Shown here piece by piece: positions 1-51,975 of a stretch of DNA of 52,003 nt. The notes below the pieces were generated by a model. The model worked only from the letters and a program-made list of their open reading frames with translations, ran no database searches and was not told the origin of the DNA. The stretch covers positions 1 to 52,003 of the IMG/VR virus record IMGVR_UViG_3300015360_000006, one strand, 5' to 3'. This DNA comes from a virus. Its lineage: Duplodnaviria > Caudoviricetes. Made by a program: the position numbers and the translations under genes. Every line of letters starts with the position of its first letter. Within the stretch, counting starts at the first letter, position 1.

Positions 1-123
1 ATGTTCGCCGCTTGTACGCTTGCATTCAACTTCGCGAACTCGGCCTTCAATGGGATGAGATCGCCGAACAATGGGACTGGAGTGCTAATGCCTAAGACCA
101 TTCACAAGGCTGCAATGGCAGCA
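1..123. repeat. Terminal direct repeat (circular assembly overlap), copy 1
   Basis: 1-123 is identical to 51881-52003. It falls inside the bEBP coding sequence, so it is an assembly overlap rather than a biological DTR. Confidence 0.95.
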
Positions 124-684
124 CATTCTATCAGCGCCGCCGGACACAACGGCTACAACGCACGCGATGCCGCGGCACTGACGCGACTGGCGGCGCGATG
201 GCGCGCGAACAAGCAGAAGCCAATGCTTATCTCGGGTGAGACCTTTATGGTTACGCCTAGGTCCATGCAGATTTATTTGTACCGTGCGCGGTCGTACGTT
301 CGAGACAACCTGAATAACTATCCAGCGGATCTCATCACACTTACTGAGATGATGACATTCAAATTGGTGAAAGGTGATGTCATTATCTATGTTGCACCGC
401 GCAACAGATTGTCAGTCATTGCGGACACCACTGTGAGTGCCTTGGGCAAGGCAACAGGTCACGACTACAACGCCAAGCAATTGTTTGTGCACTGGATCAC
501 AAAGCCACACGATGCCGGCGAGTACCTAGACATCCCGGGCGATTACTCGCCCGACGATTTCACTTGGTTCGCCGATCAGGCGAGAGAGTACCGCGGCATT
601 ATCCACATCGTACAAGATGCTCAGAACCTTAGGGTTATCTGGGATAGCGAAAGAGTAGGAGGGTCAGATGAAAGTCCTTGGTAA
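88..684 (+). CDS. Hypothetical protein (198 aa) coupled to the bEBP gene
   Basis: On the circle, ATG at 88 overlaps the bEBP stop (ATGCCTAA). The ORF-track start at 1 is an artefact of the cut. Confidence 0.75.
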   Translation: MPKTIHKAAMAAHSISAAGHNGYNARDAAALTRLAARWRANKQKPMLISGETFMVTPRSMQIYLYRARSYVRDNLNNYPADLITLTEMMTFKLVKGDVIIYVAPRNRLSVIADTTVSALGKATGHDYNAKQLFVHWITKPHDAGEYLDIPGDYSPDDFTWFADQAREYRGIIHIVQDAQNLRVIWDSERVGGSDESPW

Positions 685-934
685 AATCCCATCCACTATA
701 GAGGAGTTGCTAGAGTATCCGGCCGACGCAGCGCAGCTGTCGGATGCGGATCTTCGCAAGATCCTCGCACCATATTTCCCACATACACGACCGACAGTAA
801 CCGCCAGTGCCGTTGAAGCTTTGATCGAACGCGCAGATAAAGTGATATCGGACGAAGCACTGTTGGCATTAGTACGTGCGCGTCAGAAAACTAGGTTGGA
901 AGCAGAAGCAAAAGCAGAGAAAGAAAAACTATGA
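668..934 (+). CDS. Hypothetical protein
   Basis: 88-aa ORF with GGAGG upstream, overlapping its neighbours in the operon. Confidence 0.7.
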   Translation: MKVLGKIPSTIEELLEYPADAAQLSDADLRKILAPYFPHTRPTVTASAVEALIERADKVISDEALLALVRARQKTRLEAEAKAEKEKL

Positions 935-1833
935 CATTCGAATACGAGCCACAGATCTTACCCGGTTCACGATTCTTACTCGTGAACGCGTCGTCACTCA
1001 AGCTACTGGATTGCGATCTCAAGTATTCGCTAACAGTGCGAGGGTATCACGGTGACAAGGGTGACACCTCCATTCCGGACATCGGGTCTGCGCTGCACAA
1101 ATATGCAGAGACTTACACACGCAACGCCGGCGACCACCTTGAGGCGCTCATGGCCGCGCGTAAAGATTACCCGAACGTGCCCGTCAAGACTCTCGTCGCC
1201 GCCACCGCGCGCCGAACTTCTGTCGTGCTGCCGCCGGCCATCGAAGTGGACGGCGAAATGCTGCTGGAGGCTAAGTTCTCGCAGCCTTGGCTGCGCACTG
1301 TAATCAATGGCGAAGTGATTCAGATCGTATTGTGCGGTACGATGGATCACGTAGGCTACGGCGAGGGAGGCGTGCGCATCATTGACTATAAGTCGACGCA
1401 CTACGTTGCGATGAAGTCGGCACTGGATAAGTACGCGCACGAGTCGCAGTTCAAGTTCTACATGTGGGTCTTGTGGAAGTTTGGCGCAGCGATGCTACCG
1501 CTGAACCTGTACAACGACGTGCGGGAAGGTAAGTTCTCATCTCAGGTGTGCATCATTCAAGTCAATGGTACCGATCCTAGGTGGTACCTTGACAAGAAGC
1601 GGTACATGACTGACTACCAATTCGGGACGTACGAAAAAGCGCTGGCAGCTATGCTGCCTCGCATGGTAGAGAGCTTCACCTTAGACAGGCCTAACGCTAA
1701 CGGCATGCTATGCAATGCGTGTCAGTACTGCGAGTACAAGAAGGTCTGCTTTGCCGAGTCAGTCATGGAACGGACGGCAGAATTTGACCTGCTAACCCAA
1801 GGCAGGTACGATCCTTTGAACAGAACAAATTAA
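931..1833 (+). CDS. PD-(D/E)XK Cas4/AddB-like exonuclease
   Basis: NASSLKLLDC, IGSALH, GTMD...IIDYKS, and a C-terminal CNACQYCEYKKVC Fe-S cysteine cluster. Confidence 0.85.
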   Translation: MTFEYEPQILPGSRFLLVNASSLKLLDCDLKYSLTVRGYHGDKGDTSIPDIGSALHKYAETYTRNAGDHLEALMAARKDYPNVPVKTLVAATARRTSVVLPPAIEVDGEMLLEAKFSQPWLRTVINGEVIQIVLCGTMDHVGYGEGGVRIIDYKSTHYVAMKSALDKYAHESQFKFYMWVLWKFGAAMLPLNLYNDVREGKFSSQVCIIQVNGTDPRWYLDKKRYMTDYQFGTYEKALAAMLPRMVESFTLDRPNANGMLCNACQYCEYKKVCFAESVMERTAEFDLLTQGRYDPLNRTN

Positions 1834-1840
1834 TATTGAT

Positions 1841-2671
1841 ATGTCATTCTTATCTAGAAAAACAACGGGGCCCGCTGACACGGAATTGTCGGCGGCCGGC
1901 GCCAACATGATGGCGACCGCGATGCCAGCCGTCGCCGCCTCACCACAACCTGCCTCGCACGGAATCTTTCTGCTGCCACTCAGTGCAAAGACTGGTGCAA
2001 GGCCAGTGGCAAACATCATTGTCGTGGCCGAGAGCGGCCATGGCAAAACCACATCGCTTGAGAATCTTGACTGGGCCAGCGGCAAGATTGCGTTCATCGA
2101 TACTGAGCTTAAGGGATTTGATTGGCAGCACAAGATCCCCGAAGACTGTTACTTCAAGGCAACGTCCGGCGAGAACTGCTTGGCCATCATGCGCCACGTG
2201 GAGAGCAATCCGAAGTTTGAGATTGCAGTCGTTGACTCGTTCACGGACTACGGCATCACTGCAAATGAGGATTGCAAGTCTAAGGCTGCGGGTTACGAAG
2301 CGTATAAGCTGAACACGACTGCCATTGTCAAGTTCCTCAAAGCCGCGCGCTCTTCACGTGTGCGCTGGATTGTGCTGGCAGTGCCGGAGTTGCTTACGAT
2401 GGAGTCGACGGGCAACACATCAGGCGTGGTGATCAAGCGCGCATCTGTGATGGGTCGCGAGATGGAGGGCAAGGTCGAGGCAGCATTTGCCTACGCGGTC
2501 TACATCAAGATTGTTTCCGAGCCCGGCAAGCGGAACCAATACTTCTTCGTGCTGCAATCGGATGGGAAGTCGCAGGCTAAGATCCCGCGCGGTGTGACGG
2601 AGGCGCTTCAAATTCCGTCCGATATGAACGGGCTTCTCAAGCTCATTGAAAAGTCTGAGGCTAAGGTTTAG
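1841..2671 (+). CDS. Sak4-like / AAA_24 P-loop ATPase (recombinase)
   Basis: Walker A AESGHGKTT, FIDTE, Walker B VVDS; sits next to the exonuclease and SSB. Confidence 0.8.
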   Translation: MSFLSRKTTGPADTELSAAGANMMATAMPAVAASPQPASHGIFLLPLSAKTGARPVANIIVVAESGHGKTTSLENLDWASGKIAFIDTELKGFDWQHKIPEDCYFKATSGENCLAIMRHVESNPKFEIAVVDSFTDYGITANEDCKSKAAGYEAYKLNTTAIVKFLKAARSSRVRWIVLAVPELLTMESTGNTSGVVIKRASVMGREMEGKVEAAFAYAVYIKIVSEPGKRNQYFFVLQSDGKSQAKIPRGVTEALQIPSDMNGLLKLIEKSEAKV

Positions 2672-2729: not shown

Positions 2730-4196
2730 ATGAATACAGCATTGACACAAAAATTAGGGCAGACGTTAGTCTTGTCGCCGCAACTTCAACAGTCGCTGGC
2801 GGTCCTTGCGGCACCCGTACTGGAGTTGCGCGCGTTAGTCTCGAAAGAGTTAGAAAGCAATCCACTGCTCGAGTCGGTCAGCGATGTCGAGGAATCTGTG
2901 GAGGCGCGCGAGACTCGCGAAGATATGGAGGCCGCCATGGCCGATCCGCACGAGCCGCCGTTGGATGTGCAGTACGACCCGGCGAAGGAACCTGCGGCCG
3001 AAGACTCTGACTTCGACAAGGAGTTGCGCAGCTTATTAGAACTTGACCGCGACCTGTACGATTCACAATCGCTAGGCTCACTGAACACTTCATCGGATGC
3101 CGACGAGGAGCGCAGGCAATTCATGCTTGACTCGGCCAAGGCACCGCACACTTTGCAAGAGGAACTTGAGCAGCAGGTTCAAGGTATGCTCAATCTGACA
3201 TACGACGCTCGAGACGAGGCAATGGTATTTACACAGAACATTGATGAGCGCGGGTACTTGAATGTCCCATCAGATTTGTTCACTGAACATTTCATCGTGA
3301 GCATGCAGATGGTGCTTGAACCGCCGGGCATTGGCGCACGTAGCTTGCGCGAATCATTGAGGATTCAAACGATGCGCCATGCAAATCCCAACACGTTAGC
3401 GCTGTCTATCTTGGATTGGCACTTTGAGTTATTAAGTAAGCGCAAGTTTAATACAATTGCGGAGATTCTTGGTCTGGATTATGACGAGGTGTGCGATGCG
3501 TGCGCGTGGATTGCCAAGTTAAATCCCTATCCGGCGGCGCAATTCTACAACGCTGACAGCTCAGTTGTGACGCCAGAGCTTGATGTCGTTGCCGTCGCTG
3601 GTGTCATGGAAGTTCACCAACGCTCGGATTACTTACCCAATCTGCGCATAAGCAGTGGCGTCGCGCGCTTGGTAACTCATGCGGCGACCGACGCGACGAC
3701 GCGTGACTACATTCGCGAGAAGATCAGAGCGGGTAAGTTCTTCATCCGTAGTATTCATCAGCGACAGAATACAATTCTCCGCGTGGCAACTGAAATTGTA
3801 CGGCGGCAACATAATTTCTTTGCAAGTGGCAACGTCCTTGAATTACTACCGCTGACCATGTCGCAAGTTGCCGATGCCGTCGGCGTGCACGAGACCACCG
3901 TGAGCCGTGCGGTTTCCGGTAAGTACATGAGCACACCGCATGGAGTTCTTGAGTTGCGTTACTTCTTCTCATGCGGTGTGGCGAACGCGAGCGGAGTCGA
4001 CACGTCGAATCGCTCAGTCAAGTTGATGCTGGTGGAGATCATCGCGGGCGAGGACAAGAAGAATCCTTACTCGGATGAAGCCTTGGTTGCAGTATTGAAC
4101 TCCCGCGGCATGTGCATCGCCCGGCGCACGGCGGCCAAGTATCGCGCAGAGCATAACATTCTGCCGCGTCACTTGCGTGTAATTCATGGCACGTAG
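2730..4196 (+). CDS. rpoN: RNA polymerase sigma-54 factor
   Basis: Region I QxL...LSPQLQQSLAVL, NPLLE, IDERGYL, EPPGIGARSLRESL, HTH region PLTMSQVADAVGVHETTVSRAVSGKY, RpoN box ARRTAAKYR. Confidence 0.97.
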   Translation: MNTALTQKLGQTLVLSPQLQQSLAVLAAPVLELRALVSKELESNPLLESVSDVEESVEARETREDMEAAMADPHEPPLDVQYDPAKEPAAEDSDFDKELRSLLELDRDLYDSQSLGSLNTSSDADEERRQFMLDSAKAPHTLQEELEQQVQGMLNLTYDARDEAMVFTQNIDERGYLNVPSDLFTEHFIVSMQMVLEPPGIGARSLRESLRIQTMRHANPNTLALSILDWHFELLSKRKFNTIAEILGLDYDEVCDACAWIAKLNPYPAAQFYNADSSVVTPELDVVAVAGVMEVHQRSDYLPNLRISSGVARLVTHAATDATTRDYIREKIRAGKFFIRSIHQRQNTILRVATEIVRRQHNFFASGNVLELLPLTMSQVADAVGVHETTVSRAVSGKYMSTPHGVLELRYFFSCGVANASGVDTSNRSVKLMLVEIIAGEDKKNPYSDEALVAVLNSRGMCIARRTAAKYRAEHNILPRHLRVIHGT

Positions 4197-4202
4197 GCAG
4201 CT
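4187..4202 (+). promoter_or_regulatory. Sigma54 (-24/-12) promoter overlapping the rpoN stop codon
   Basis: TGGCACG-TAGG-CAGC-T with exact GG-N10-GC spacing, pointing into the SSB/replication genes. Confidence 0.7.
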
Positions 4203-4212
4203 TACCTATTTT

Positions 4213-4462
4213 GCGAGCGGTCGGATGGGCCGTTAGCTCTGTATCTTGTGATACGGATAACAGTACATTACATAAATAGGGATCAGTAATGTACTGCCAA
4301 TTTTGCTGAGCCCTGAAAGCCAGCGACTAGTGAGCTATGATTTCGTAGGAGATCTACGAATGGGGTACGCCAGAACGGGAGTGGCGGAGGTTGCAAGGCC
4401 TTGTGTTTTCCTCCATGAAACACTCACTAGGTAATTTCCAAGCACGTTAAGTGACTGGAATT
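4213..4462 (+). ncRNA. Structured 5' leader or candidate ncRNA
   Basis: About 290 nt with no + strand ORF. Several hairpins, including a perfect 11-bp stem CAGTACATTAC/GTAATGTACTG (4261-4296) and TTCGTAG/CTACGAA (4342-4360). Confidence 0.45.
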
Positions 4463-4492
4463 CAAAACAAAACAAAACAAAACAAAACAAAA
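4463..4492 (+). repeat. (CAAAA)6 tandem repeat directly before the SSB start codon
   Basis: Six CAAAA units ending in the A of ATG; no Shine-Dalgarno. Confidence 0.9.
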
Positions 4493-4995
4493 TGGGACTC
4501 ATCCGTAAAGCAGCACTGCCTGACAATAGCTGCGGTATTCCGCAGGAGTATTACAACGTGGCTATTGTGGAAGCCAAAGCCCAGAAGTCCAAGCGCACGG
4601 GCGCAGACATGATCGTTCTGAAGCTGGAGATCCTCTCTCCCAAAGAGGTTCCTGTCGAGGGAAAGCTCGTCCGCACTCAAGGACGCAAGTTCGACCACTA
4701 CATCGTGGCTTCGGAGAACGACAACCGATGGGTCAAGGAGATCGAGACCCTGCTGGGCGATGAGCTGCCGGCAGAAGTTGACAGCACCGAGCTGGCCATT
4801 GGGGCCGCTGCTGACTTGCAAGGTATGGTTCTGATGAACGTCTCGCTCAAAGCCGAGGAGCGTTACAAGAACCAGCCCGGGACCTACGAGCCGGAGATCG
4901 TCAACGGCCAGAAGATCGTCATCGGGTATGGCATTAGGTTCGCCGATGCCAACCGCCCGCGTGCGATCTCCGCCGAGGCCGCCGGTCTGGCCTAA
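4492..4995 (+). CDS. Single-stranded DNA-binding protein (DUF669-like)
   Basis: IPQEYYNVAIVEAKAQKSKRTGADMIVLKLEI fits the phage SSB pattern; completes the exonuclease-Sak4-SSB triad. Confidence 0.7.
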   Translation: MGLIRKAALPDNSCGIPQEYYNVAIVEAKAQKSKRTGADMIVLKLEILSPKEVPVEGKLVRTQGRKFDHYIVASENDNRWVKEIETLLGDELPAEVDSTELAIGAAADLQGMVLMNVSLKAEERYKNQPGTYEPEIVNGQKIVIGYGIRFADANRPRAISAEAAGLA

Positions 4996-5017
4996 GCCAG
5001 CAAGACACAGACAGTAT

Positions 5018-5056
5018 GAGGCGCGAGCTCCACAAGGGCTCGCGCCTTTCTCTTTT
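5018..5056 (+). terminator. Intrinsic terminator-like hairpin after SSB
   Basis: GAGGCGCGAGCTC-cacaa-GGGCTCGCGCCTT followed by TCTCTTTT. Confidence 0.7.
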
Positions 5057-5060
5057 CAAT

Positions 5061-10891: not shown

Positions 10892-11066
10892 GCAAATGAG
10901 TTTGTTCGGAGGAGATGACAATCTACCTCCGGGTGTAACGCAGAAGGATCTGGACAACCACGGCGACGGGAAGGTTACCTGCACAGGTTGTCTTCGCTCG
11001 CGCTATCAGCACGATATGTTCGACGGACTGTGCCGCTGGTGTATCCCAATGTCAGAAAGGGACTAA
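10884..11066 (+). CDS. Small Zn-finger protein (60 aa)
   Basis: NLPPGVT..D..., CTGC...CRWC; coupled to both neighbours. Confidence 0.65.
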   Translation: MNEQMSLFGGDDNLPPGVTQKDLDNHGDGKVTCTGCLRSRYQHDMFDGLCRWCIPMSERD

Positions 11067-14024: not shown

Positions 14025-14037
14025 AGTAGATAAAACG

Positions 14038-14065
14038 AAGCCCACCTTATGGTGGGCTTTTTTTT
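14038..14065. terminator. Terminator between the convergent arms
   Basis: AAGCCCACC-ttat-GGTGGGCTT followed by a T-run. Confidence 0.9.
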
Positions 14066-34217: not shown

Positions 34218-35510
34218 TTACCAGCTGAGCGCGGAGTTCGGATCGCGGCGATAGATGATAGGAATCACGTTGTAAGGGTTCGCAGGCATAACGCCGTGAA
34301 CGGTGGAAGCGATCAACTTGATCAGCTCGTCCCACGTGTTGGCTTCCACATTGCCAGCGGAATCCTTGATCAGGAAATTCCGCGTAGCCTGAACCTGACC
34401 ATTCCAGTTCAACGCATTGAATTTGTTTGCCGTGGAGCCTTGGCCGGTGAAGCTGGCAGGAGGAGGTCCAACGTCAATGGTCTGAATCGGATTCCAACCA
34501 ATCAGGTAAGCAACACTGACAGGAGCCTTGCGGTACGCTTCAGTGAAACGGGTGATGTAACCCTTATCACCGGAGTAGTTCGCGGCATTGTACTCCTGCT
34601 CGACCTGAATGTCAGGCATCGTACCATCTTCGTTGTAACGCTCGGGGTACGGCGTAGAGCGGAAGACGATGTTATCCGAGATGGCTCCAGAGAATCGGCT
34701 GTTGAGCAGATTCATCGCAAGGGGCCGAACGGCATTGACCGTCGGATCGTAGGTCAGGCGAGTGAGCAACTCATTGTCGCCCGCGAGAATCCACTTACCT
34801 TTGACCAACTCATTGTCGCCTGGGTTGCCCTTCTTCCAGCCGTCGCTGGGCGCAATACCCAGACTGTTCTGGGCAAGATCACGAATCGCACAGATGGTGC
34901 GAAAGTCCAGCGTACCCGTGCCGAGCTCCTGGATCTTGGCTGCCATCCAGTTAGTATCCTTGACACTGGCGGTGGGATCGCTGGGATCACCAAACGGCAC
35001 AGACTCATCATATGCCGAATCGGCGGAACCGCCGCGGCCCACGATGTAGACGTGGCGAGCAAGATTGAACAACTGATCGCGAATGAAGAAGTCGTTGCAG
35101 ATGGCAATCTGCGTAGCGAGATCCTTCATCTGGAACATGATGTTCTTGCGGAAGTCCCGGAAATCAGGCAGCCAGTGAATCTGCTGAGACATGTACTTGT
35201 GCCGCTTGACACGCGCCTGATTCTGCAGCTCACGATTGCGGTACGTGTTGATCTTCGCAACCTCAGTGATGTTGTTGGGGCGATGGGTCTGCGAAGTGAC
35301 AGGCGAGGACTGGGGCATCACACCGATGATGATGTCGCCATTGTTCTGCTTGAACTTGAGGGAGGAGAACATAGTCCCCCAGGTGGAGACATACTCGTAG
35401 GTGCTCTTCTCCTGATAAGCCATCTGAACAGGAAGCCGAGCAAACGCTGCGGTGTCCTGAACAGAATAGTTGACGTCCGTTGGAGGCGTGAGTCCGATCG
35501 TAGTAGGCAT
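34218..35510 (-). CDS. Major capsid protein
   Basis: 430 aa, directly after the scaffold, with its own promoter and strong codon bias (open antisense frame). Confidence 0.75.
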   Translation of the reverse strand: MPTTIGLTPPTDVNYSVQDTAAFARLPVQMAYQEKSTYEYVSTWGTMFSSLKFKQNNGDIIIGVMPQSSPVTSQTHRPNNITEVAKINTYRNRELQNQARVKRHKYMSQQIHWLPDFRDFRKNIMFQMKDLATQIAICNDFFIRDQLFNLARHVYIVGRGGSADSAYDESVPFGDPSDPTASVKDTNWMAAKIQELGTGTLDFRTICAIRDLAQNSLGIAPSDGWKKGNPGDNELVKGKWILAGDNELLTRLTYDPTVNAVRPLAMNLLNSRFSGAISDNIVFRSTPYPERYNEDGTMPDIQVEQEYNAANYSGDKGYITRFTEAYRKAPVSVAYLIGWNPIQTIDVGPPPASFTGQGSTANKFNALNWNGQVQATRNFLIKDSAGNVEANTWDELIKLIASTVHGVMPANPYNVIPIIYRRDPNSALSW

Positions 35511-35655: not shown

Positions 35656-35672
35656 TGCTGGAAGTATGCCAA
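35656..35672 (-). promoter_or_regulatory. Sigma54 (-24/-12) promoter for the capsid gene
   Basis: Minus strand TTGGCATA-CTTC-CAGC-A (GG-N10-GC), immediately after the scaffold stop. Confidence 0.7.
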
Positions 35673-39033: not shown

Positions 39034-40856
39034 TTGTAAATCAGGTTGTAAAATCCACTAACGATTAGTTTGCGCTCGACCATCGGATCAAAGTGTTCGG
39101 GCTCTTTGTAATTATCGAAAGCTCGATTCTCGTAATCTTGCACGAAGTGCGCCATACGTTCCTCCTTTGAGCCTTCGCTTACATTGTTTTCGGCGAGCAT
39201 TTCGGAAAGATCGTAGATAGAGTAAGCCAGAACGTAAGCGTCGGCGCAGTCTGGTGAAAATCCTAGGCGACCTTTCGCCTTCTTTTTGTCTTCCAGTTGA
39301 AGCTTCTGCTTCTCATTGGTGAAGAACTTACGCGTGGTAATTTGCTTCTTCCAGCGATCGTAGCATTCAAACTTGTGTGGCGGAATAATTTTACCCAGCT
39401 CAATCATTCGGCCAACTCGGAAGTACATCTCAGCGCCTATGTTCGCGTAATTCTCAGTGTTGAAAGCCGCCGATTGGTTGTTAACTCCGCGTATAGGATA
39501 GCCAGCTTCTTGCACGCGCCGCAAAATTGGCGCACCGATTCCGCCCATATCACCTGAGACATCTTCGTACTCGCACTTGAAATTTGACTTGCCGATCAAG
39601 AGTTGCTTGACAATCCAAGCGTGCAACTTGTTAGGAGAAGATGTAGTAATGACTGCGTGGTACAAGGGCTCATTGCCATGAACAATCCAGAACTCGGATA
39701 GATCAACGCCCAATCCAACGTCGAGCCCACCGGCCGGGCGCTGTCCCATTGTTTTCGCCGGCGGCGGAATGTAATCCAATCTCTCACCCGGAATGATGAC
39801 CTCTTCTGCGGATTCGTAGAACTCCGCCAAAATGCCTGTGCGATAGGGCGCAGAGTTCTCGCCGTGGTTCAGCCTAGTTTGCTCGATCGCCGCGGGCGAA
39901 ATGTTGGGACACTCAAACGCAGTGACACGGCGCGAGAAAGGAGTGCCCAGTTCGCACTTGGTAAACGAAGAACGCTCTACAGACTTGTAGAACTGACCGC
40001 ACCGCGCGCCGGGAGAAGATACCTGCAACCAATGAGAGTAACCATAGAAGCGCGAGAAAGCTTCGTACAGCGTATCTTTAATAGACTTAGCTTCACCGAT
40101 TACCACCATCATCTTCGATTCAGGGACTTCATAGAATGGGTGATAGCCTTCAACCTTTGATGGCTCGTCCGTACAGAATGCCCGCAATTCACTGCCCGTG
40201 TAATTGCACTTGATTGAGAATTCTTTTATGTCAAATACATCATCCTCGTGCAACGCATTGATTGTTTCGCACAGAGTTGAGATAGGCTTGAAGGTGTGCT
40301 CCTTAAGCTGGATATGCGACTCCGACGTGATGACTACGCGCGAACGCAGGTAGCGCATCATGAACCAAACTACTGTCGGCGTAATGATGTAAGTATCCTT
40401 ACCCGAAGAGTTGGCCGCCACCAGATTGTAAATGAATGGATTCTCTTTCGTCGGATCCTGCCACTCGCTGCGCGGCAGGCCTTCCAAATTCAAATCACCG
40501 CCCATGCGATGCTGTTCCTCTTGCTGCCATTCGTAGGGCTTAAGATGTGGATTGTAAGTTTTGAACAACACCAAAGGTGTCGGAAAGTCAAAGGTCTTAG
40601 GATTCGCGGGCCATGAGAATTTAGAGGACCGCGACGGCGCCGGGCGGTCCGCCCCCTCGGGTTCCCTGTCTTCCGGCGCGGCAGCGCCGGCCCGCGTCTT
40701 AAGCCCTGGAGAAGCGGGTACAGATTTGGGAAACTCGGCACCAAAGCCAGTGTCCACGCCATCGAACGCCGGATCGATTGCCGCCGAAGCGTGGGTAGAT
40801 TCCAGCGCCGCGCGCACCCGCAAAGCATTGAGCTGCTCTTCAGTAAGTTTAGGCAT
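39030..40856 (-). CDS. terL: Terminase large subunit
   Basis: PYEWQ, AANSSGKD, EGYH, VVIGEA, SSP, ILAEF, GLDVG, SPDCADA. Confidence 0.88.
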   Translation of the reverse strand: MPKLTEEQLNALRVRAALESTHASAAIDPAFDGVDTGFGAEFPKSVPASPGLKTRAGAAAPEDREPEGADRPAPSRSSKFSWPANPKTFDFPTPLVLFKTYNPHLKPYEWQQEEQHRMGGDLNLEGLPRSEWQDPTKENPFIYNLVAANSSGKDTYIITPTVVWFMMRYLRSRVVITSESHIQLKEHTFKPISTLCETINALHEDDVFDIKEFSIKCNYTGSELRAFCTDEPSKVEGYHPFYEVPESKMMVVIGEAKSIKDTLYEAFSRFYGYSHWLQVSSPGARCGQFYKSVERSSFTKCELGTPFSRRVTAFECPNISPAAIEQTRLNHGENSAPYRTGILAEFYESAEEVIIPGERLDYIPPPAKTMGQRPAGGLDVGLGVDLSEFWIVHGNEPLYHAVITTSSPNKLHAWIVKQLLIGKSNFKCEYEDVSGDMGGIGAPILRRVQEAGYPIRGVNNQSAAFNTENYANIGAEMYFRVGRMIELGKIIPPHKFECYDRWKKQITTRKFFTNEKQKLQLEDKKKAKGRLGFSPDCADAYVLAYSIYDLSEMLAENNVSEGSKEERMAHFVQDYENRAFDNYKEPEHFDPMVERKLIVSGFYNLIYK

Positions 40857-41235
40857 CGGTCGAAGGAGTTACATTCAGTGCAAGCTTGTGGCGAATGATT
40901 TTGGGCACCGCATTTTGCGCACATTCCAGCGCCGCAATTAATTGCAAAGACGCCAGCGCATTGATTTCGCGCGTCCGCGCCCGCGCATCATTGCGACCTT
41001 TTACTTCGTCCACCAACCACGTAAGGGCACTCATGCGCGTTTTGACCGCATTCTCTTTCCCAAAAGCGATGTGCTTCATTTCGAGAAGAATGGCCGGCAA
41101 GTCTTCAACGCCCGGCACGCCCAGCATCACGCGCACAGATTGCACTGATAAGTCTAAACCCGCCGCAATGTCCTCCGCCGAAAGAGAAGGGTCGCTCCGA
41201 GATAGTGCCAGAACTTGATCGTAGCCTGATGACAT
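40849..41235 (-). CDS. Terminase small subunit-like HTH protein
   Basis: N-terminal HTH LSAEDIAAGLDLSVQSVR; first late gene; start ATG 41235. Confidence 0.65.
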   Translation of the reverse strand: MSSGYDQVLALSRSDPSLSAEDIAAGLDLSVQSVRVMLGVPGVEDLPAILLEMKHIAFGKENAVKTRMSALTWLVDEVKGRNDARARTREINALASLQLIAALECAQNAVPKIIRHKLALNVTPSTDA

Positions 41236-41246
41236 GATTCGTTGGT

Positions 41247-41263
41247 TGCAGAGAGTGTGCCTT
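41247..41263 (-). promoter_or_regulatory. Sigma54 (-24/-12) late promoter
   Basis: Minus strand AAGGCACA-CTCT-CTGC-A (GG-N10-GC); predicted +1 near 41236, next to the terS ATG. Confidence 0.65.
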
Positions 41264-41414: not shown

Positions 41415-41454
41415 CCCTTGTTCTCTCCCGACAGAAATGACAGGAATGATTCAA

Positions 41455-47175: not shown

Positions 47176-47192
47176 TTGGCACGCACATAGCT
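47176..47192 (+). promoter_or_regulatory. Sigma54 (-24/-12) middle promoter
   Basis: Intergenic TTGGCACG-CACA-TAGC-T with a perfect -24 element and GG-N10-GC spacing. Confidence 0.75.
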
Positions 47193-47265: not shown

Positions 47266-48000
47266 ATGAGTAACAAGGTTAAAGACAAGGTTCAGACGAC
47301 GGTCAGCCCCGTCCTTGACGACAACGGGCAGCCGTTGTTCATCAGCATCGGCGCGGCGCGGCTCCCCATGCTGGAGTACCACACGCCCGAGCACACCACG
47401 GTGTCGGGCGGCGTGACGAAGACGGCCGCCGCAAAGACCCTGTTCCGTGCGTCCATTCCAACGGTCGACTCGGTCCTCGCGCTCGTGGTGGCGGCGATCG
47501 CTGCTTGCGAAAACGATTCTGACCGTCTCGTTTTGACGGAGCGGATCTTTGGTCCGTGGCTCGCCACGGCCAGCGACCGGGCCTACGTGCCCGACCCCGT
47601 CAACATTGGCGAGACCCAGTGGTCCGAAGAGGCGATGGCGAAGGACCTGTCTTCGCCGCGCACCACCCGGAAGGCCGGGACCAGCATCGAAGACCTGCGC
47701 GCTGCGCACAACGATCTGAACAACCAGATCATCCCGTTGCTGGAGTTCCGTCTCCAGATGGGTGCCGGCGAGCCCATCGACTGGGACGCGGTGAGTTCCG
47801 CGGTTGGTCGTCACATTCGCGAGGAAGATGCACTCGTCGAGTATCTCATCACCCTCCGCGGCCAGCTGAAGGCCGTGAAGTGGGCCATCGCGGCTCGCGA
47901 GGAGACCCTCCAGAAGGCGGCCAAGACTCGCAGTGCGAAGGCCAAGCGCGCACCGGTCGAGGCCGTCGCCGACGCGACTGCCGAAGCAGTCCAAGCGTAA
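47266..48000 (+). CDS. Hypothetical protein, probably highly expressed
   Basis: Strong GC3 bias, A-rich leader, K/A-rich C-tail, own promoter and 3' hairpin. Confidence 0.75.
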   Translation: MSNKVKDKVQTTVSPVLDDNGQPLFISIGAARLPMLEYHTPEHTTVSGGVTKTAAAKTLFRASIPTVDSVLALVVAAIAACENDSDRLVLTERIFGPWLATASDRAYVPDPVNIGETQWSEEAMAKDLSSPRTTRKAGTSIEDLRAAHNDLNNQIIPLLEFRLQMGAGEPIDWDAVSSAVGRHIREEDALVEYLITLRGQLKAVKWAIAAREETLQKAAKTRSAKAKRAPVEAVADATAEAVQA

Positions 48001-48014
48001 GGCGTAGTCAAACG

Positions 48015-48043
48015 GAGCCCGTTGCTCACAAGGCAGCGGGCTT
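48015..48043 (+). terminator. Hairpin after the first middle gene
   Basis: GAGCCCGTTGCT-cacaa-GGCAGCGGGCTT with a weak U-tail. Confidence 0.5.
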
Positions 48044-48091
48044 AACTTTGCCTATGACAAAACCGTTTAAACTGTAACGACCATTACAGAT

Positions 48092-48670
48092 ATGATCTCC
48101 TTAACACCCCATGAATTAGGCGACCTGTTATTCTTCACCGACGACATGTCGCTGGACGAGCCGCGCGCATGGGCAATGCGCCACATCACGGACTTTCACA
48201 GCAGTGAGTGCCGTGTAATATCAGCGGCGCTTGCGCTGGCAGTCAAAGATGCGGATCCAAATGCTGACATCTTGTATGTGCAGGTAGCGGGGCCGGAGAA
48301 TAAGTTCTACATTCTCTGGCGCGCGCCGGACTGGAAGCGCTCGCGGCACCGCGCGTTCATGTTGCGCACTAGATTGGGCGCAGATCGCGCGGCATCTAAT
48401 GCGTTGCGTGAGTACACGCAGGAAGAGCTGGCCTATCGCAAGATTTGCGCAGACTGGTTGGCGCGTGTTGCCTCGGAGTTCTGCACTCTGGCGCCCGGTT
48501 ACAAGATCTCATGGACGCGCGACTCCATGCTAAAGCTGGCCTCGAAAGCCAACTATGATCTGACGCGTCTCTTCGACGTGCTAATCGACATGCTGGATGA
48601 AGACCTTCTGCGACAAGTGTGGGTCGCAGCACCTTACAGAAAAACAAACAAAGATAAATCAAATGAATAA
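48092..48670 (+). CDS. Hypothetical protein
   Basis: 192-aa ORF. Confidence 0.7.
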   Translation: MISLTPHELGDLLFFTDDMSLDEPRAWAMRHITDFHSSECRVISAALALAVKDADPNADILYVQVAGPENKFYILWRAPDWKRSRHRAFMLRTRLGADRAASNALREYTQEELAYRKICADWLARVASEFCTLAPGYKISWTRDSMLKLASKANYDLTRLFDVLIDMLDEDLLRQVWVAAPYRKTNKDKSNE

Positions 48671-48971
48671 GAAAACAAAGAAAATGTTGGCAGCATACTC
48701 AAAGTCTTGCGCCAAGCTCGAAGCACTGAGTGTCAGGTGTGCTAAGTTTATGGAGTTATACAACTCTAAGAATACCGAACATGAAGCCATGGTCGAGAAG
48801 TTCCGCGCACAACTTAGCAAGAAGCGCGCGCCGCTGAACTTGAAAGTCTCGAATGCAGGCCGAGTCTGCAAAGTGATGGAGGAGGAATGCCGCGCCATGC
48901 GTGTTGTCATGTTCCATACAGTGGATCCAGTTGACAAGGCATGCCTCTACGAACACCTGATGAAGGACTAA
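48663..48971 (+). CDS. Basic coiled-coil protein
   Basis: ATGAATAA overlap. Confidence 0.65.
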   Translation: MNKKTKKMLAAYSKSCAKLEALSVRCAKFMELYNSKNTEHEAMVEKFRAQLSKKRAPLNLKVSNAGRVCKVMEEECRAMRVVMFHTVDPVDKACLYEHLMKD

Positions 48972-48972
48972 C

Positions 48973-51117
48973 ATGCCCATCACGTTAACGAAGAAGGCAC
49001 TGGGCCTACAAGAAATGGAGAAGACACGGATTGCAAATAGCACCCGTGCAACCGCACTAGCTCAGTGCACTAGCGCCAAGGGGCGCATTGCTCTGGGAAA
49101 GGTTAAGGATTGGGCCGGACTTAGCGTCCAACTCAACTACGAAATCTCAGCGGGACTAACCTCCCTGCCATGGGAGCGTGAGAACTGGGAGATGTGCCTC
49201 GACTGGTTCGTGTCTAGCGCCGTCGCGCGCAGCACGGCGCTGTTCGACAGCAAGGCCATCGAGTCGGCCGCAGTTCTCGAAACTGTGGTGAAGAACAATG
49301 TCGCCTTTGCTAAAGTTCAACTGCGCCCGCAGCAGAAGAAAGCGCTGGACCAAATCATCGCAGCATACGAGGCCGGCAAGCGGGCCGTGCTGGTGGCAAT
49401 GGGCACTGGCCGCGGCAAGACTGTGGTCTTCGGCGCGTTCATCGAGTGGCTCAAGCGGCGCGGCACGGTCGACGGGGATAACTTCCTCTTGCCCAAGGCG
49501 TGCATCTTTACCAAGAAGCCTGCCGTCTGGTCGACGCGGTGGAAGATTGAAAACTTCTTCGACCTACATTGCACGGGTGACGTGCAAGATAAGATGGACG
49601 CAGAGGTTGGCGTGTTCCATTACAATGCACTCTCCGCCAAGAAGCACGCGTCCAAGTGGAAGCGTGATCCGAAGACTGGCGAGCTACTGCTTAACTCAGT
49701 AGAGATGTTCGGGAATGCATTCACATTCCCTGTGTCGGCACTCGTCGAGCCACTGAATCTTGTGGTGTTCGACGAATGTCACATGCTCAAGAAGCGCAGT
49801 GCCAAATGCACCAAGCGTGCGCGCGGCATCATGGCTAGCATAGCTGCCAAGAAGTGCTTCTATATTTTCACGTCTGCCACGCCGGCCGTGTGTCTGAATG
49901 ACACGATGCTGTTCAACATCGCTGCCGAATTGGCAACCGATGAGAACATGGCTACGTTTCTTGGCCGCTTCGGTGGCGATTCAAGTCAGGCAGATCCTAT
50001 TGCAATGCGCAAGTACAATGATTACTTGGGCATCCATATGGTCAAGCCGCCCGAAGACAAGCTGCCTTATAAGGTTACCAATCGCGTAGACTTGGTAGAC
50101 TTTCCATGCGCTGCCACCAAGGAGAAGTACATGGCGGCGGAGGCGGATTACATCCGTGCGGTTGAATCCTCTGGCGGCGTGGCTGGCGACACGTCTATGT
50201 CGCAGTTCATTATCTACCGACGATGCGCGGAGGTCTTGATGGCGCCTGTCTACGCAGACTACATGTGCCGCGCACGTGCTCGAGGCATCGCGCCCGTACT
50301 CGCCGTGTGCTTCATCGACACGGTCACTTCGGTGAGCGCCATCCTTGCGAAGCGTGGATGGAAACGCGAAGAGCTGTCCTATATCTGGGGCGGCGAGAAG
50401 ATCATCGAGCAGTCGGAGTGCTACACTACTGCCGAGATGGCTAAGATTCTTAGCCGTGCCGACGAGGAGATCCTCAAGTATACGGAGGCATTCGGTGAGC
50501 CTCCCGAAGATGACTACTTCTTCCTGACCCGCAAGGAGAAAGCGAAGTTCACGCGCACTAGGGCATACAACAAGGCTCGCTTGCGGCGCGGCGAGACTAA
50601 GCTTGAGCAGATCGAGCGCACGGAGATGCTCAAGGACTACAAGCTTGACAAGCAGACTGACCTCGAGCGTGAGGTGGAACTCGACAAGTTCCTTAAAGAT
50701 GTAACACTGGGTTGCATCTTCACGTTCGCCAGCGGTGGCACTGGCATCGATCTGGACAATCAGATCAAGGGTGGCCGGCCGCGCGAGTTGATCGCCACTG
50801 TCTGCTACTGGGCAGAGGAGTTCTTGCAGGCGTTCGGGCGGTGCGCCCGTGTCATGACGCAGTCAGATGTGTCGCACATCATCCTCATGTTCAAGGATAC
50901 ACTGCCTGTGCAGCATGTCCTTCCGCGATTGCTGCCCAAGTTGCGCAGCATCAAGATTCTTACGGGCATCGAGGGAGATCTCGAAGATGTTATGGCTACC
51001 GGGATTCGCAAGGGCCACAAGGCTGAGATCATCAAGGAATCCAAGGAGGTAGTGCAAGATGGTATCATCACCGACGAGGACGACGGCGATGACGACGATG
51101 ACGAAGACGAGAAATAA
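48973..51117 (+). CDS. Superfamily 2 helicase/ATPase
   Basis: LRPQQ, MGTGRGKT, DECH, SAT, GTGIDL, QAFGRCAR; acidic tail. Confidence 0.88.
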   Translation: MPITLTKKALGLQEMEKTRIANSTRATALAQCTSAKGRIALGKVKDWAGLSVQLNYEISAGLTSLPWERENWEMCLDWFVSSAVARSTALFDSKAIESAAVLETVVKNNVAFAKVQLRPQQKKALDQIIAAYEAGKRAVLVAMGTGRGKTVVFGAFIEWLKRRGTVDGDNFLLPKACIFTKKPAVWSTRWKIENFFDLHCTGDVQDKMDAEVGVFHYNALSAKKHASKWKRDPKTGELLLNSVEMFGNAFTFPVSALVEPLNLVVFDECHMLKKRSAKCTKRARGIMASIAAKKCFYIFTSATPAVCLNDTMLFNIAAELATDENMATFLGRFGGDSSQADPIAMRKYNDYLGIHMVKPPEDKLPYKVTNRVDLVDFPCAATKEKYMAAEADYIRAVESSGGVAGDTSMSQFIIYRRCAEVLMAPVYADYMCRARARGIAPVLAVCFIDTVTSVSAILAKRGWKREELSYIWGGEKIIEQSECYTTAEMAKILSRADEEILKYTEAFGEPPEDDYFFLTRKEKAKFTRTRAYNKARLRRGETKLEQIERTEMLKDYKLDKQTDLEREVELDKFLKDVTLGCIFTFASGGTGIDLDNQIKGGRPRELIATVCYWAEEFLQAFGRCARVMTQSDVSHIILMFKDTLPVQHVLPRLLPKLRSIKILTGIEGDLEDVMATGIRKGHKAEIIKESKEVVQDGIITDEDDGDDDDDEDEK

Positions 51118-51126
51118 ACATATCAT

Positions 51127-51975
51127 ATGCCCGTAACAATTAAGACTGGACACAAGCTGCCCTATGCAGTAGCAAGCGAGGCGTTCAAGACACGAGCGCG
51201 CATGACACGGGACGGCAGACTCGTTGAAAACAGTTACATCACGGACGATCCGTTCACGCTCAGCCAGCTTAGCTTGATTGATCAGGTGCGTGATCTCAAC
51301 ATGTCGGTCCTGATAACAGGTGAGTCGGGCACCGGCAAAGATATTATGGCCAAGCGACTCGGCCATCGGCACACGCTGGATGCTAGCGGGTTGCACACTA
51401 TGGCCAAGTACATCTCCGTCAACTGCGCAGGCATCACGGATTCACTGTTCGAGTCCGAGATGTTTGGCCACATCAAGGGATCATTCACCGGTGCACTGCG
51501 CGATCGCGCTGGATTCTTTCAAGCGGCGCACGGCGGCACGTTATTCCTTGACGAGATCGGCGATCTGCCTTTGCACCAGCAAGCTAAGTTGCTGCGTGTG
51601 CTAGAGAACAAAACGGTTACGCCAGTCGGCAGCACCGAGGAGATTCATGTGTCGCCTCGCATTGTGTGTGCTACCAACAAGAACTTAAGGCAAGCTATTA
51701 TTGCCGGAGAGTTTCGAGAGGACCTCTATTACCGCATCGCACAAGTTGTGGTATCAACCATCCCGTTACGCATGAGGTCGACGGATGTTGTGCTCATTGC
51801 CAACGAGATCATTGCGACGAATGACTGGACGCCGTTGGCTTCCAACGAGACCATTCCTACATGGGCCTACTCGCGCGGCAATGTTCGCCGCTTGTACGCT
51901 TGCATTCAACTTCGCGAACTCGGCCTTCAATGGGATGAGATCGCCGAACAATGGGACTGGAGTGCTAATGCCTAA
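51127..51975 (+). CDS. Sigma54-dependent transcriptional activator (bEBP), AAA+ domain only
   Basis: VLITGESGTGKD, VNCA, ESEMFGHIKGSFTGA, GGTLFLDEIG, QAKLLRVLE, ATN, FREDLYYRI, GNVR; no receiver domain and no C-terminal HTH. Confidence 0.95.
   Translation: MPVTIKTGHKLPYAVASEAFKTRARMTRDGRLVENSYITDDPFTLSQLSLIDQVRDLNMSVLITGESGTGKDIMAKRLGHRHTLDASGLHTMAKYISVNCAGITDSLFESEMFGHIKGSFTGALRDRAGFFQAAHGGTLFLDEIGDLPLHQQAKLLRVLENKTVTPVGSTEEIHVSPRIVCATNKNLRQAIIAGEFREDLYYRIAQVVVSTIPLRMRSTDVVLIANEIIATNDWTPLASNETIPTWAYSRGNVRRLYACIQLRELGLQWDEIAEQWDWSANA

What the first reader, a model, noticed from the sequence alone, without database searches (positions are those of the whole stretch)
2730..4196. Phage-encoded sigma54 plus its own activator: a self-contained sigma54 transcription programme
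Seen: a 52-kb podovirus-type genome with no RNA polymerase encodes an intact RpoN (region I, core-binding region, HTH, RpoN box ARRTAAKYR). About 2.6 kb upstream on the circle, in the same arm, it encodes a bEBP AAA+ protein (51127-51975). Four -24/-12 promoters sit at the heads of transcription units. Established: sigma54 holoenzyme cannot open promoters without a GAFTGA-loop AAA+ activator, and the well-studied phage sigma factors (T4 gp55, SPO1 gp28/gp34) are sigma70-family. Inference: this phage switches host RNA polymerase from early to middle/late transcription with an ATP-dependent sigma54/bEBP pair. I do not know of a characterised example of this strategy.
Basis: partly seen in the sequence, partly recalled or inferred. 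Interest (0 to 1): 0.95.

Follow-up and report, generated by a model that had tools for sequence, protein, structure and literature searches.

The report
Phage with its own sigma-54 system
An uncultured lake phage carries a complete sigma-54 gene and a stripped-down activator ATPase, with matching promoters in front of its own replication, packaging and capsid genes, so it appears to run a bacterial transcription system that I could not find described as virus-encoded.

Summary
Observation confirmed. The window is a complete circular phage genome (123-bp terminal overlap; CheckV 100%). Gene 2730-4196 is an intact RpoN: all three Pfam sigma-54 domains, and TIGR02395 above its cut-off. Gene 51127-51975 is a 282-aa sigma-54 activator with the AAA+ core only (GSFTGA loop, no sensor domain, no HTH). 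Three exact TGGCAY-N6-AGCW sites and one weaker site sit at operon heads.

What the relatives add:
- About 30 related phage contigs all keep the activator next to the helicase and carry the same promoter type.
- RpoN is patchy. It is present in the window's clade (inserted after Sak4) and in a second clade at another position.
- It is absent from two complete relatives and from the syntenic slot of the nearest sister clade.
- The window's RpoN nests among Verrucomicrobiota RpoNs on a long branch.

Reading: the family is built on sigma-54 promoters plus its own activator, and rpoN was added later, probably twice (AU test p = 0.056, so one origin is not formally rejected). Function is inferred; no RNA data exist.

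I found no paper describing a phage-encoded sigma-54 or GAFTGA activator. The nearest precedent is the host sigma-54 promoter of Pseudomonas phage YuA. This scan has noted sister cases on other DNA.

The parts
2730..4196 (+). rpoN: complete sigma-54 (Region I, core-binding domain, HTH, RpoN box). Its last three codons and stop overlap the -24 element of the next promoter.
   Evidence: Pfam and NCBIfam above cut-offs. Alignment with 8 bacterial RpoNs. 95% identical copies in L001 and L002 in the same context. dN/dS 0.21 against L001.
51127..51975 (+). Minimal bEBP: the AAA+ sigma-54 interaction domain only, GSFTGA loop, no receiver/sensor domain, no HTH. The gene runs into the 123-bp terminal overlap.
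   Evidence: 99% identical copy in L007 next to the helicase. dN/dS 0.04. One side of a 100* branch together with 16 other phage/short bEBPs.
47177..47192 (+). Sigma-54-type promoter TGGCACGCACATAGCT heading the operon 47266 -> helicase -> bEBP -> (circle join) -> nuclease -> Sak4 -> rpoN.
   Evidence: Identical in L007 and L010. A matching site sits at the orthologous place in L008, L009 and L011. Best PWM hit in the window, 16.7 bits, with a matrix trained on relatives only.
4187..4202 (+). Sigma-54-type promoter TGGCACGTAGGCAGCT, overlapping the rpoN stop and 290 nt upstream of the DUF669 SSB-like gene.
   Evidence: Identical in L001 and L002. A functionally equivalent site precedes the DUF669 gene in the rpoN-less L008, L009 and L011.
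35656..35671 (-). Sigma-54-type promoter TGGCATACTTCCAGCA, starting 2 nt after the stop of the upstream gene and 146 nt before the 430-aa capsid-like gene.
   Evidence: Equivalent sites precede the homologous ~430-aa gene in G001, G004, G006 and G010.
41247..41262 (-). Weaker -24/-12 site AGGCACACTCTCTGCA at the head of the late (-) arm, 11 nt before the ATG at 41236.
   Evidence: Consensus sites at the same place, with 11-14 nt spacing to the first late ORF, in G004, G006, L013, L033 and L036. It does not match the strict pattern.
47266..51117 (+). Genes between the middle promoter and the bEBP: 244-aa, 192-aa and 124-aa proteins of unknown function, and a 714-aa ResIII/DEAD helicase.
   Evidence: The helicase is conserved in 32 of the 34 loci fetched with it, at 28-98% identity.
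88..2671 (+). Genes between the bEBP and rpoN: an unknown ~198-aa protein, an 88-aa protein, a PD-(D/E)XK nuclease (931-1833) and a Sak4-like AAA_24 protein (1841-2671).
   Evidence: Same order in the relatives.
4492..4995 (+). DUF669 (SSB-like) gene, first target of the 4187 promoter. It is followed by a hairpin plus T run at 5018-5048.
34218..35510 (-). 430-aa probable major capsid protein, target of the 35671 promoter.
   Evidence: Lead only: nearest ESM-Atlas clusters score 0.98 and 0.97, with Phage_capsid_3 on 41-53% of members. No Pfam or PHROG hit. The AF2 model is unusable, pLDDT 29.8.
40849..41236 (-). First gene of the late arm, followed by the large terminase subunit (39030-40856).
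14037..14060 (.). Two-way terminator-like hairpin where the + arm and the - arm converge.

Best explanation
The window is a complete ~51.9-kb tailed-phage genome, probably of a freshwater Verrucomicrobiota host. It has no recognisable RNA polymerase and expresses its middle and late genes from sigma-54-type (-24/-12) promoters on host core RNA polymerase.

Proposed mechanism:
1. The phage makes a 282-aa AAA+ activator with no sensor and no DNA-binding domain. Like DBD-less cellular bEBPs, it should be constitutively active and act from solution through its GSFTGA loop on Region I of sigma-54. It would use ATP to open the promoters.
2. The phage also makes its own sigma-54. This was captured from the host lineage and inserted directly upstream of a pre-existing sigma-54 promoter.
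3. Both genes lie in one operon that is itself headed by such a promoter (47177). Low-level seeding, by read-through from the early region or by host sigma-54, would be amplified by positive feedback.
4. The pair would then drive the SSB/replication unit (4187), the packaging arm (41262) and the capsid gene (35671).

Family view: the activator plus sigma-54 promoters are the ancestral, universal design. The phage-borne rpoN is a later supplement, probably raising the sigma-54 supply and competing with sigma-70 for core enzyme.

Shown here: gene identities, intact motifs, synteny, promoter-motif placement and conservation, patchy rpoN distribution, phylogenetic placement. Inferred: every functional step, including binding to core, promoter use, ATP-dependent opening, feedback and timing.
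For: Gene identity.

Complete phage genome: with terminase, tail and replication PHROGs.

Not a chimera: L001 holds Sak4-rpoN-DUF669-pol at 95-100% identity, and L007 holds helicase-bEBP-nuclease-Sak4. A contig of an independent run (X3, record 19) bridges Sak4 and rpoN.

Purifying selection: dN/dS is 0.21 for rpoN and 0.04 for the bEBP.

Family-wide activator: every one of the 29 related loci that covers the stretch just downstream of the helicase has a bEBP there. The 17 phage/short bEBPs are separated from 40 bacterial ones by a 100* branch. There is also a bit-score gap, at least 266 bits for the short forms against at most 189 for bacterial ones.

Promoters:
- 3 of 3 exact sites in the window are at operon heads (P about 8e-5 by placement).
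- There are 46 matches in 544 kb of 32 family sequences, against 5.1 +/- 2.3 in shuffles with a maximum of 13. These loci are homologous, so the matches are not independent events.
- Internal control: TGGCAY-N6-CGCN sites are 7 of 7 inside genes, while the A-class is 38 of 48 intergenic even by a crude gene call.
- In 5 whole genomes, 21 of 22 strict sites are outside co-directional genes. They recur before the first late gene, the ~430-aa capsid-like gene, the middle operon and the SSB gene.
- The rpoN-less genome G010 has 4 textbook TGGCAY-N5-TTGCT sites.

rpoN origin: it nests within Verrucomicrobiota-like RpoNs (100*), and the best 80 genome hits are mostly titled Verrucomicrobiota, Pedosphaera or Limisphaerales.

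GSFTGA is a common natural loop: 40 of 91 long bacterial hits have it, against 29 with GAFTGA.
Against: - There is no expression data: no RNA run holds the phage. No transcription start, no binding and no ATPase activity is shown.
- The number of promoter matches in the window alone is only marginally above chance: 3 against 0.79 expected. A relatives-trained PWM at 12 bits or more gives 2 hits against 1.66 in shuffles, and the 4187 site falls below that threshold.
- The pattern was defined after seeing the sites.
- The -12 element is non-canonical (AGCW rather than TTGCW) in 3 of 4 sites, and the fourth site lacks the T of TGGCAC.
- rpoN evolves faster than its neighbours (dN/dS 0.21 against 0.01-0.15) and sits on a long branch of 1.09. 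This could mean partly relaxed constraint.
- Relatives manage without rpoN, so its contribution may be small.
- Sigma-70-type sites in the early region are not above chance, 11 against 8.0 +/- 2.5, so the seeding step is unsupported.
- The host is inferred only from RpoN similarity.
Confidence: 0.68

Rival explanations
1. The promoters are read by host sigma-54 with the phage activator, as in the rpoN-less relatives. The phage rpoN would be a dispensable or decaying passenger that adds little or nothing to phage transcription.
For: Two complete relatives (G004, G010) and the sister clade's syntenic slot lack rpoN yet keep the same promoters and activator. rpoN has the highest dN/dS of the five genes compared, 0.21, and a long branch.
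Against: The ORF is intact. All three domains score far above their cut-offs, and Region I, the HTH and the RpoN box sit in invariant columns. A dN/dS of 0.21 is still purifying. The gene is kept at 95% identity in separate assemblies. A second clade keeps its own rpoN in 4 of 4 complete genomes, and more than 100 protein clusters exist at 69% identity or more.
Confidence: 0.15
2. The phage sigma-54 and activator mainly reprogramme host genes (the host sigma-54 regulon) or shut off host sigma-70 transcription by taking core RNAP. On this reading it is an auxiliary or host-takeover function, not the phage's own promoter system.
For: A DBD-less, sensor-less activator should fire every accessible sigma-54 promoter in the cell. 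An AAA+-only bEBP was used experimentally for exactly that purpose in Salmonella, according to the title and abstract of PMC3844500 in the listing. Extra sigma-54 would compete with sigma-70 for core enzyme; this rests on general knowledge of sigma competition.
Against: -24/-12 sites sit at the heads of the phage's own middle, SSB, packaging and capsid units and are conserved at orthologous places across clades that share only about 30% helicase identity. This does not exclude host effects as a side benefit.
Confidence: 0.1
3. rpoN and/or the bEBP gene are host DNA joined to a phage contig by mis-assembly, or the record is a plasmid or other non-viral element.
For: rpoN is about 50% identical to Verrucomicrobiota RpoNs. 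Most hits to both genes in the GenBank phage collection are mislabelled bacterial contigs.
Against: The junctions recur in independent assemblies (L001, L002, L007, L010; X3 record 19). The nearest cellular protein is only 51% identical, so this is not recent host DNA. The record has a terminal repeat and terminase, tail and replication genes. GC content is even, 0.48-0.57, with no step at either gene.
Confidence: 0.02

Closest known systems
Bacterial sigma-54 / bEBP enhancer-dependent transcription (for example E. coli sigma-54 with PspF or NtrC; Aquifex NtrC1)
   Same: Same two protein families with all sequence hallmarks. Same GG-N10-GC promoter geometry.
   Different: Both genes are carried by a virus. 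The activator has neither a sensor nor a DNA-binding domain, so no enhancer or signal input is expected. The targets are phage replication, packaging and capsid genes. The -12 element is mostly AGCW rather than TTGCW.
Cellular bEBPs without a DNA-binding domain (Helicobacter pylori FlgR, Chlamydia CtcC, Rhodobacter FleT). These names are recalled and also appear in earlier scan notes; they were not retrieved by any search here.
   Same: An AAA+ core that ends shortly after sensor II with no HTH_8. None of the short phage forms carries PF02954, unlike most of the bacterial hits.
   Different: FlgR and CtcC keep a receiver domain and are controlled by a kinase. The phage protein has only about 55 residues before Walker A and no recognised domain there.
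Pseudomonas phage YuA: a host sigma-54-dependent promoter in a phage
   Same: A phage promoter read by sigma-54 holoenzyme. [quoted passage not shown] 2008.
   Different: In the passage I read, no YuA-encoded sigma-54 or bEBP is mentioned. The 2008 paper itself is not held, so I could not check it.
Phage-encoded sigma-70-family factors and T4 late transcription (gp55/gp33/gp45), recalled from general knowledge
   Same: A phage supplies its own promoter-specificity factor, plus an activator, to redirect host core RNAP to later genes.
   Different: Those factors are sigma-70-family fragments and need no AAA+ ATPase to open the promoter. Here the factor is a full sigma-54 with an ATP-driven activator.
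Htm (Gp204) of an E. coli phage, bioRxiv 10.64898/2026.10.06.757011
   Same: A phage AAA+ protein with structural likeness to RtcR, PspF and NtrC and without a DNA-binding domain (passages read).
   Different: According to those passages, Htm lacks the GAFTGA loop and motif and has a DD Walker B. The protein here has the loop (GSFTGA) and a canonical DE Walker B, and scores 196 bits on Sigma54_activat.

Membership tests
Sigma-54 (RpoN) | N-terminal Region I (activator-interacting domain) | tested here: met
   PF00309 scores 49.2 bits against a cut-off of 23.8, residues 5-48. LSPQLQQSLA..L.APVLEL lies in invariant columns.
Sigma-54 (RpoN) | Core-RNAP-binding domain | tested here: met
   PF04963 scores 111.9 bits against 22.9, residues 136-309. 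There is a 9-residue deletion relative to the 8 bacterial sequences at alignment columns 202-210.
Sigma-54 (RpoN) | C-terminal DNA-binding domain with HTH and RpoN box | tested here: met
   PF04552 scores 172.2 bits against 22.8. HETTVSRAVSGKY and ARRTAAKYR are present.
Sigma-54 (RpoN) | Full-length equivalog score | tested here: met
   TIGR02395 scores 322.3 bits against a cut-off of 277.35. The narrower PRK05932 sub-models are below their cut-offs.
Sigma-54 (RpoN) | Binds core RNAP and -24/-12 DNA, and forms a closed complex that needs an activator | not testable with these tools
   Biochemistry was not available.
bEBP (sigma-54 activator, AAA+) | Sigma54_activat AAA+ domain with Walker A, Walker B, arginine fingers and sensor II | tested here: met
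   PF00158 scores 196.5 bits. GESGTGK, LFLDEIGD, FREDLYYR and GNVRRL are aligned to the FleQ and NtrC cores.
bEBP (sigma-54 activator, AAA+) | GAFTGA L1 loop that contacts sigma-54 | tested here: met
   The loop reads GSFTGA. The same variant is in 40 of 91 long bacterial hits. Family relatives have GAFTGA, GAFTGS or GAYTGS.
bEBP (sigma-54 activator, AAA+) | C-terminal HTH (enhancer binding) | tested here: not met
   There is no HTH_8 or other DNA-binding family, and the protein ends about 25 residues after sensor II. It is therefore an activator of the DBD-less subtype, not an 'enhancer-binding' protein in the literal sense.
bEBP (sigma-54 activator, AAA+) | N-terminal regulatory (receiver, GAF, PAS or V4R) domain | tested here: not met
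   No such family was hit, and the AAA+ match starts at residue 44.
Sigma-54 promoter | GG and GC dinucleotides exactly 10 bases apart, within TGGCAC-N5-TTGCW | tested here: inconclusive
   The spacing is met in 4 of 4 sites and TGGCAY in 3 of 4. The -12 element reads AGCW in 3 sites and TGCA in 1, and none has TTGC.
Sigma-54 promoter | Placed upstream of, and co-directional with, a transcription unit; conserved in relatives | tested here: met
Sigma-54 promoter | Transcription start about 12 nt downstream of the GC, dependent on RpoN and a bEBP | not testable with these tools
   No RNA run holds the phage.

The most novel reading that the evidence does not exclude
A whole family of ~50-kb phages of lake bacteria is obligately wired to sigma-54. 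It has an ancestral, always-on activator that needs no enhancer, and sigma-54 promoters in front of replication, packaging and capsid genes. Members have repeatedly captured the host's rpoN and placed it under a sigma-54 promoter. That would create a self-amplifying, portable transcription module consisting of sigma, activator and a 16-bp promoter. The module would also starve sigma-70 of core enzyme and so double as host shut-off.
Probability: 0.35. Interest if true: 0.9.

Novelty: new variant of a known kind. Interest (0 to 1): 0.8.

Why it matters
Sigma-54 transcription is the one bacterial promoter system that is strictly off without an ATP-driven activator. In the papers I could search it is treated as a cellular system only.

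A virus that carries both parts, with matching promoters on its own genes, would be a new strategy of phage gene control.

The family also offers a natural experiment. Sister genomes with and without rpoN share the same promoters, which makes it possible to ask why a phage needs its own sigma factor.

The parts are small: a 282-aa always-on activator, a 488-aa sigma and a 16-bp promoter. They are plausibly enhancer-independent, which is attractive for tightly off, orthogonal expression systems.

The finding also points to Verrucomicrobiota, a poorly studied phylum with no phage model that I know of (from general knowledge; not searched here), as the likely host.

Tried and rejected
- The canonical pattern TGGCAC-N5-TTGC with up to 2 mismatches gave 88 matches against 68.5 expected, scattered through genes. 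GG-N8-type loose patterns gave 16 against 12.1. Neither was useful.
- A relatives-trained PWM at 12 bits or more is no better than chance in number: 2 hits against 1.66.
- Sigma-70 and terminator consensus scans are at chance level and do not define the early promoters.
- No shared upstream element was found. No 9-mer is common to three or more of the four 200-nt upstream regions. This fits a DBD-less activator but is weak evidence.
- The AF2 model of the 430-aa capsid-like protein, built from a 5-row alignment, failed with pLDDT 29.8. No fold search was run on it.
- The GenBank phage collection gave 14 records hit by RpoN and 65 hit by the bEBP. Most carry bacterial-genome features or are unannotated fragments; none is a relative of this phage, and none was followed up.
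- PHROGs has no family for the RpoN. phrog_7998 (unknown function) matches the bEBP at 8e-40.
- No RNA holder is listed for the phage. Five DNA runs hold parts of it.
- Single origin of all phage RpoNs: the free tree is better by 33.7 lnL units, but p-AU is 0.0555, so a single origin is not rejected. Both phage groups are long branches.
- Orthogonal promoter specificity of the phage sigma-54 was considered and set aside, because rpoN-less relatives use the same AGCW -12 element.
- Complex prediction was not used. A sigma-54/bEBP pair would pass by likeness to solved complexes and would not change my odds.
- Supplementary files of papers were not consulted. The 2008 YuA paper is not held, so its details are unseen.
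Full report
WHAT IS THERE

The window is a complete phage genome. Its first and last 123 bases are identical, and the record is a virus record with direct terminal repeats and 100% estimated completeness.

- A + strand arm runs from about 41.3 kb through the circle join to 13.9 kb. It holds small early ORFs followed by replication and recombination genes: a ResIII/DEAD helicase, a PD-(D/E)XK nuclease, a Sak4-like ATPase, DUF669, a split family-A DNA polymerase, a ligase, a thymidylate synthase and a primase.
- A - strand arm runs from 41.2 kb down to 14.1 kb. It holds the large terminase, tail genes and large virion proteins.
- The two arms converge on a two-way hairpin terminator at 14037-14060.

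THE TWO GENES

Gene 2730-4196 encodes a 488-aa protein with all three sigma-54 Pfam domains far above cut-off. It also scores 322 bits on the NCBI equivalog model against a cut-off of 277. Region I, the HTH and the RpoN box fall in columns that are invariant among 8 bacterial homologues.

Gene 51127-51975 encodes a 282-aa protein that consists of the sigma-54 interaction AAA+ domain only (196 bits). It has Walker A, a GSFTGA loop, Walker B, arginine fingers and sensor II, all aligned to solved FleQ, NtrC and PspF cores. It has no receiver or sensor domain, no HTH, and only about 25 residues after sensor II. GSFTGA is a normal variant: 40 of the 91 long bacterial hits carry it.

On the circle the activator gene ends 2.63 kb before rpoN, with four tightly packed co-directional genes between.

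I found no T7-type RNA polymerase (weak because the control rang nowhere). The one very large ORF (1591 aa) looks like an internal/ejected virion protein by language-model features and has no Pfam or PDB match.

NOT AN ARTEFACT

Independent viral contigs repeat both contexts at 94-100% protein identity. L001 and L002 hold Sak4-rpoN-DUF669-polymerase; L007 and L010 hold helicase-activator-nuclease-Sak4. A contig from an independent freshwater run bridges Sak4 and rpoN, with a ~130-nt indel in the spacer.

The nearest cellular RpoN is only about 51% identical. GC content shows no step at either gene. Both genes are under purifying selection: dN/dS is 0.21 for rpoN and 0.04 for the activator, against 0.01-0.15 for neighbouring genes.

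PROMOTERS

The textbook pattern is not enriched. The pattern TGGCAY-N6-AGCW occurs exactly three times (4187+, 47177+, 35671-), against 0.79 expected.

All three sites are essentially non-coding and within 300 nt upstream of a co-directional gene. Only 4.4% of position/strand combinations share that property. They precede:
- the operon that contains the helicase, the activator and, across the join, rpoN;
- the DUF669 SSB-like gene and the replication genes;
- a 430-aa gene that is probably the major capsid protein (a lead only).

A fourth, weaker site (AGGCAC-N6-TGCA, 41262-41247) sits 11 nt before the first ATG of the late arm.

I chose the pattern after seeing the sites, so the test that counts is in the relatives.

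THE RELATIVES CHANGE THE PICTURE

A scan of viral contigs with a helicase alignment returned 34 loci, 32 of them true relatives with 28-98% helicase identity.

The activator:
- In every one of the 29 loci that covers the stretch just downstream of the helicase, a short activator gene lies there.
- In a tree, these 17 phage/short activators lie on one side of a fully supported branch against 40 bacterial ones.
- In the large protein database, the short forms (246-306 aa, no HTH_8) score 266-628 bits, while the best bacterial response regulators score at most 189.

The promoter motif:
- It recurs 2-4 times per locus, with 46 matches in 544 kb of 32 family sequences against 5.1 +/- 2.3 in shuffles. 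These loci are homologous, not independent.
- As an internal control, otherwise identical sites with C at -14 are all (7 of 7) inside genes. Those with A at -14 are 38 of 48 intergenic, even with a crude gene call.
- In five whole genomes, 21 of 22 strict sites avoid co-directional genes. They recur before the first late gene (11-14 nt from its start codon, which would give a nearly leaderless mRNA if the usual spacing holds), before the ~430-aa capsid-like gene, before the middle operon and before the SSB gene.

rpoN, by contrast, is patchy:
- It is present in the window's clade, between Sak4 and the SSB promoter.
- It is present in a second, abundant clade as a 429-433-aa form upstream of the helicase, directly behind its own -24/-12 site. 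There is one copy in each of 4 complete genomes, and more than 100 protein clusters exist at 69% identity or more.
- It is absent from the whole records of the window's nearest sister clade (L008, L009, L011; 57% helicase identity; records 51-82% complete). There the Sak4-to-SSB slot holds other genes.
- It is absent from two complete, terminally repeated genomes, G004 and G010. Both still carry the activator and the promoters, and G010 has four textbook TGGCAY-N5-TTGCT sites.

Host sigma-54 must therefore be able to serve these promoters. The AGCW -12 variant is not tied to having a phage rpoN.

ORIGIN OF rpoN

In a 70-row tree, the window's RpoN and its L001 copy nest inside the group of proteins named Verrucomicrobiota (support 100) on a branch of 1.09 changes per site. 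Their cellular neighbours have branches of 0.1-0.2. The second phage clade forms a separate deep group.

Forcing all phage RpoNs together costs 33.7 log-likelihood units, with p-AU 0.0555. Two captures are therefore favoured by the tree, by the different insertion sites and by the rpoN-less sister clade, but a single origin is not formally rejected.

The best 80 hits among species genomes are mostly titled Verrucomicrobiota, Pedosphaera or Limisphaerales MAGs. A few odd titles are probably mislabels. DNA runs that hold the phage are from freshwater and a microbial mat. The host is thus probably a freshwater verrucomicrobium; this is an inference.

The last three codons and the stop of rpoN are formed by the -24 element of the SSB promoter. 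An equivalent promoter exists in the rpoN-less sister clade at the end of a different gene. This fits insertion of rpoN just upstream of an existing promoter.

HOW IT MOST LIKELY WORKS (inferred)

1. Early genes are read by the host's main holoenzyme. I could not define those promoters.
2. Some transcription reaches the middle operon by read-through, or host sigma-54 is used with the first activator molecules.
3. The activator has no sensor and no DNA-binding domain, so it should be constitutively active. It would act from solution on Region I of sigma-54 bound at -24/-12 sites and open them with ATP.
4. The activator and rpoN both lie downstream of the 47177 promoter, so their synthesis would feed back positively.
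5. The pair would then drive the SSB/replication unit, the packaging arm and the capsid gene.
6. The phage's own sigma-54 would raise the supply of this normally scarce factor and compete with sigma-70 for core enzyme.

WHAT IS KNOWN

I ran eight full-text searches. One of them used six phrases for 'phage-encoded sigma54/RpoN' and returned 0 papers. None found a description of a phage-encoded sigma-54 or of a phage GAFTGA-type activator.

The nearest precedents are:
- Pseudomonas phage YuA, which uses a host sigma-54-type promoter. I read a passage in PMC10914365; the 2008 source paper is not held.
- A 2026 preprint on Htm, a phage AAA+ protein that resembles bEBPs but lacks the GAFTGA loop (passages read).

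Earlier notes of this scan describe sister cases on other DNA, both activator-only phages and the second rpoN-bearing clade. Within this scan the phenomenon is therefore not unique to this window. What this window adds is a separate, host-like rpoN and an rpoN-less sister clade for comparison.

VERDICT

The activator plus sigma-54 promoters are the family's ancestral design, and the phage-borne sigma-54 is a later, probably repeated, addition.

All functional steps remain inferred. No RNA data exist, and the promoter count in the window alone is only marginally above chance.

Noticed in passing
window 5016-6416 and 10988-12052 (+): The family-A DNA polymerase is split into two genes about 4.6 kb apart. 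Both halves hit phrog_17 at successive profile positions (658-950 and 963-1246), with other genes between them. The N-terminal half is also conserved in the relatives.
   Followed up: no
window 41247-41262 (-); G004 40606; G006 29923; L013 2384: The promoter at the head of the late arm lies only 11-14 nt from the first start codon in three clades. With the usual sigma-54 spacing, this would give a leaderless or nearly leaderless late mRNA.
   Followed up: partly
L004 5053-5083 and the same place in about 20 related loci: In the second clade, the -24 element of the promoter directly upstream of rpoN is part of a palindrome (TGCCAA-AAC-TTGGCA). This is a possible operator or a two-way site.
   Followed up: no
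window 41450-41700: An AT-rich, gene-free block full of short TATATA/GGTAT-type repeats lies just inside the early arm, next to the divergent control region. It is a candidate origin or promoter cluster.
   Followed up: no
window 21922-24354 (-): An 810-aa structural-arm protein has a C-terminal calcineurin-like metallophosphoesterase domain, 41 bits.
   Followed up: no
window 27030-28529 (-): A 499-aa protein inside the structural arm has methyltransferase-like (N-terminal) and glycosyltransferase-like (C-terminal) PHROG matches.
   Followed up: no
window ~2660 (Sak4-rpoN spacer): Strain variants in three freshwater runs, and L001, carry about 130 extra bases between Sak4 and rpoN. The insertion junction is therefore variable.
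   Followed up: no
window 4202-4492 and 5018-5048: The SSB-like gene has a 290-nt leader after its promoter and is followed by a strong hairpin plus T run (13 pairs). This looks like a separately tuned, largely monocistronic unit.
   Followed up: no
sister-clade activators (P0242-P0262): The rpoN-less sister clade's activators carry GAFTGS or GAYTGS instead of GAFTGA (18 of 21 listed). The last loop residue is changed in exactly the group that must work with host sigma-54.
   Followed up: no
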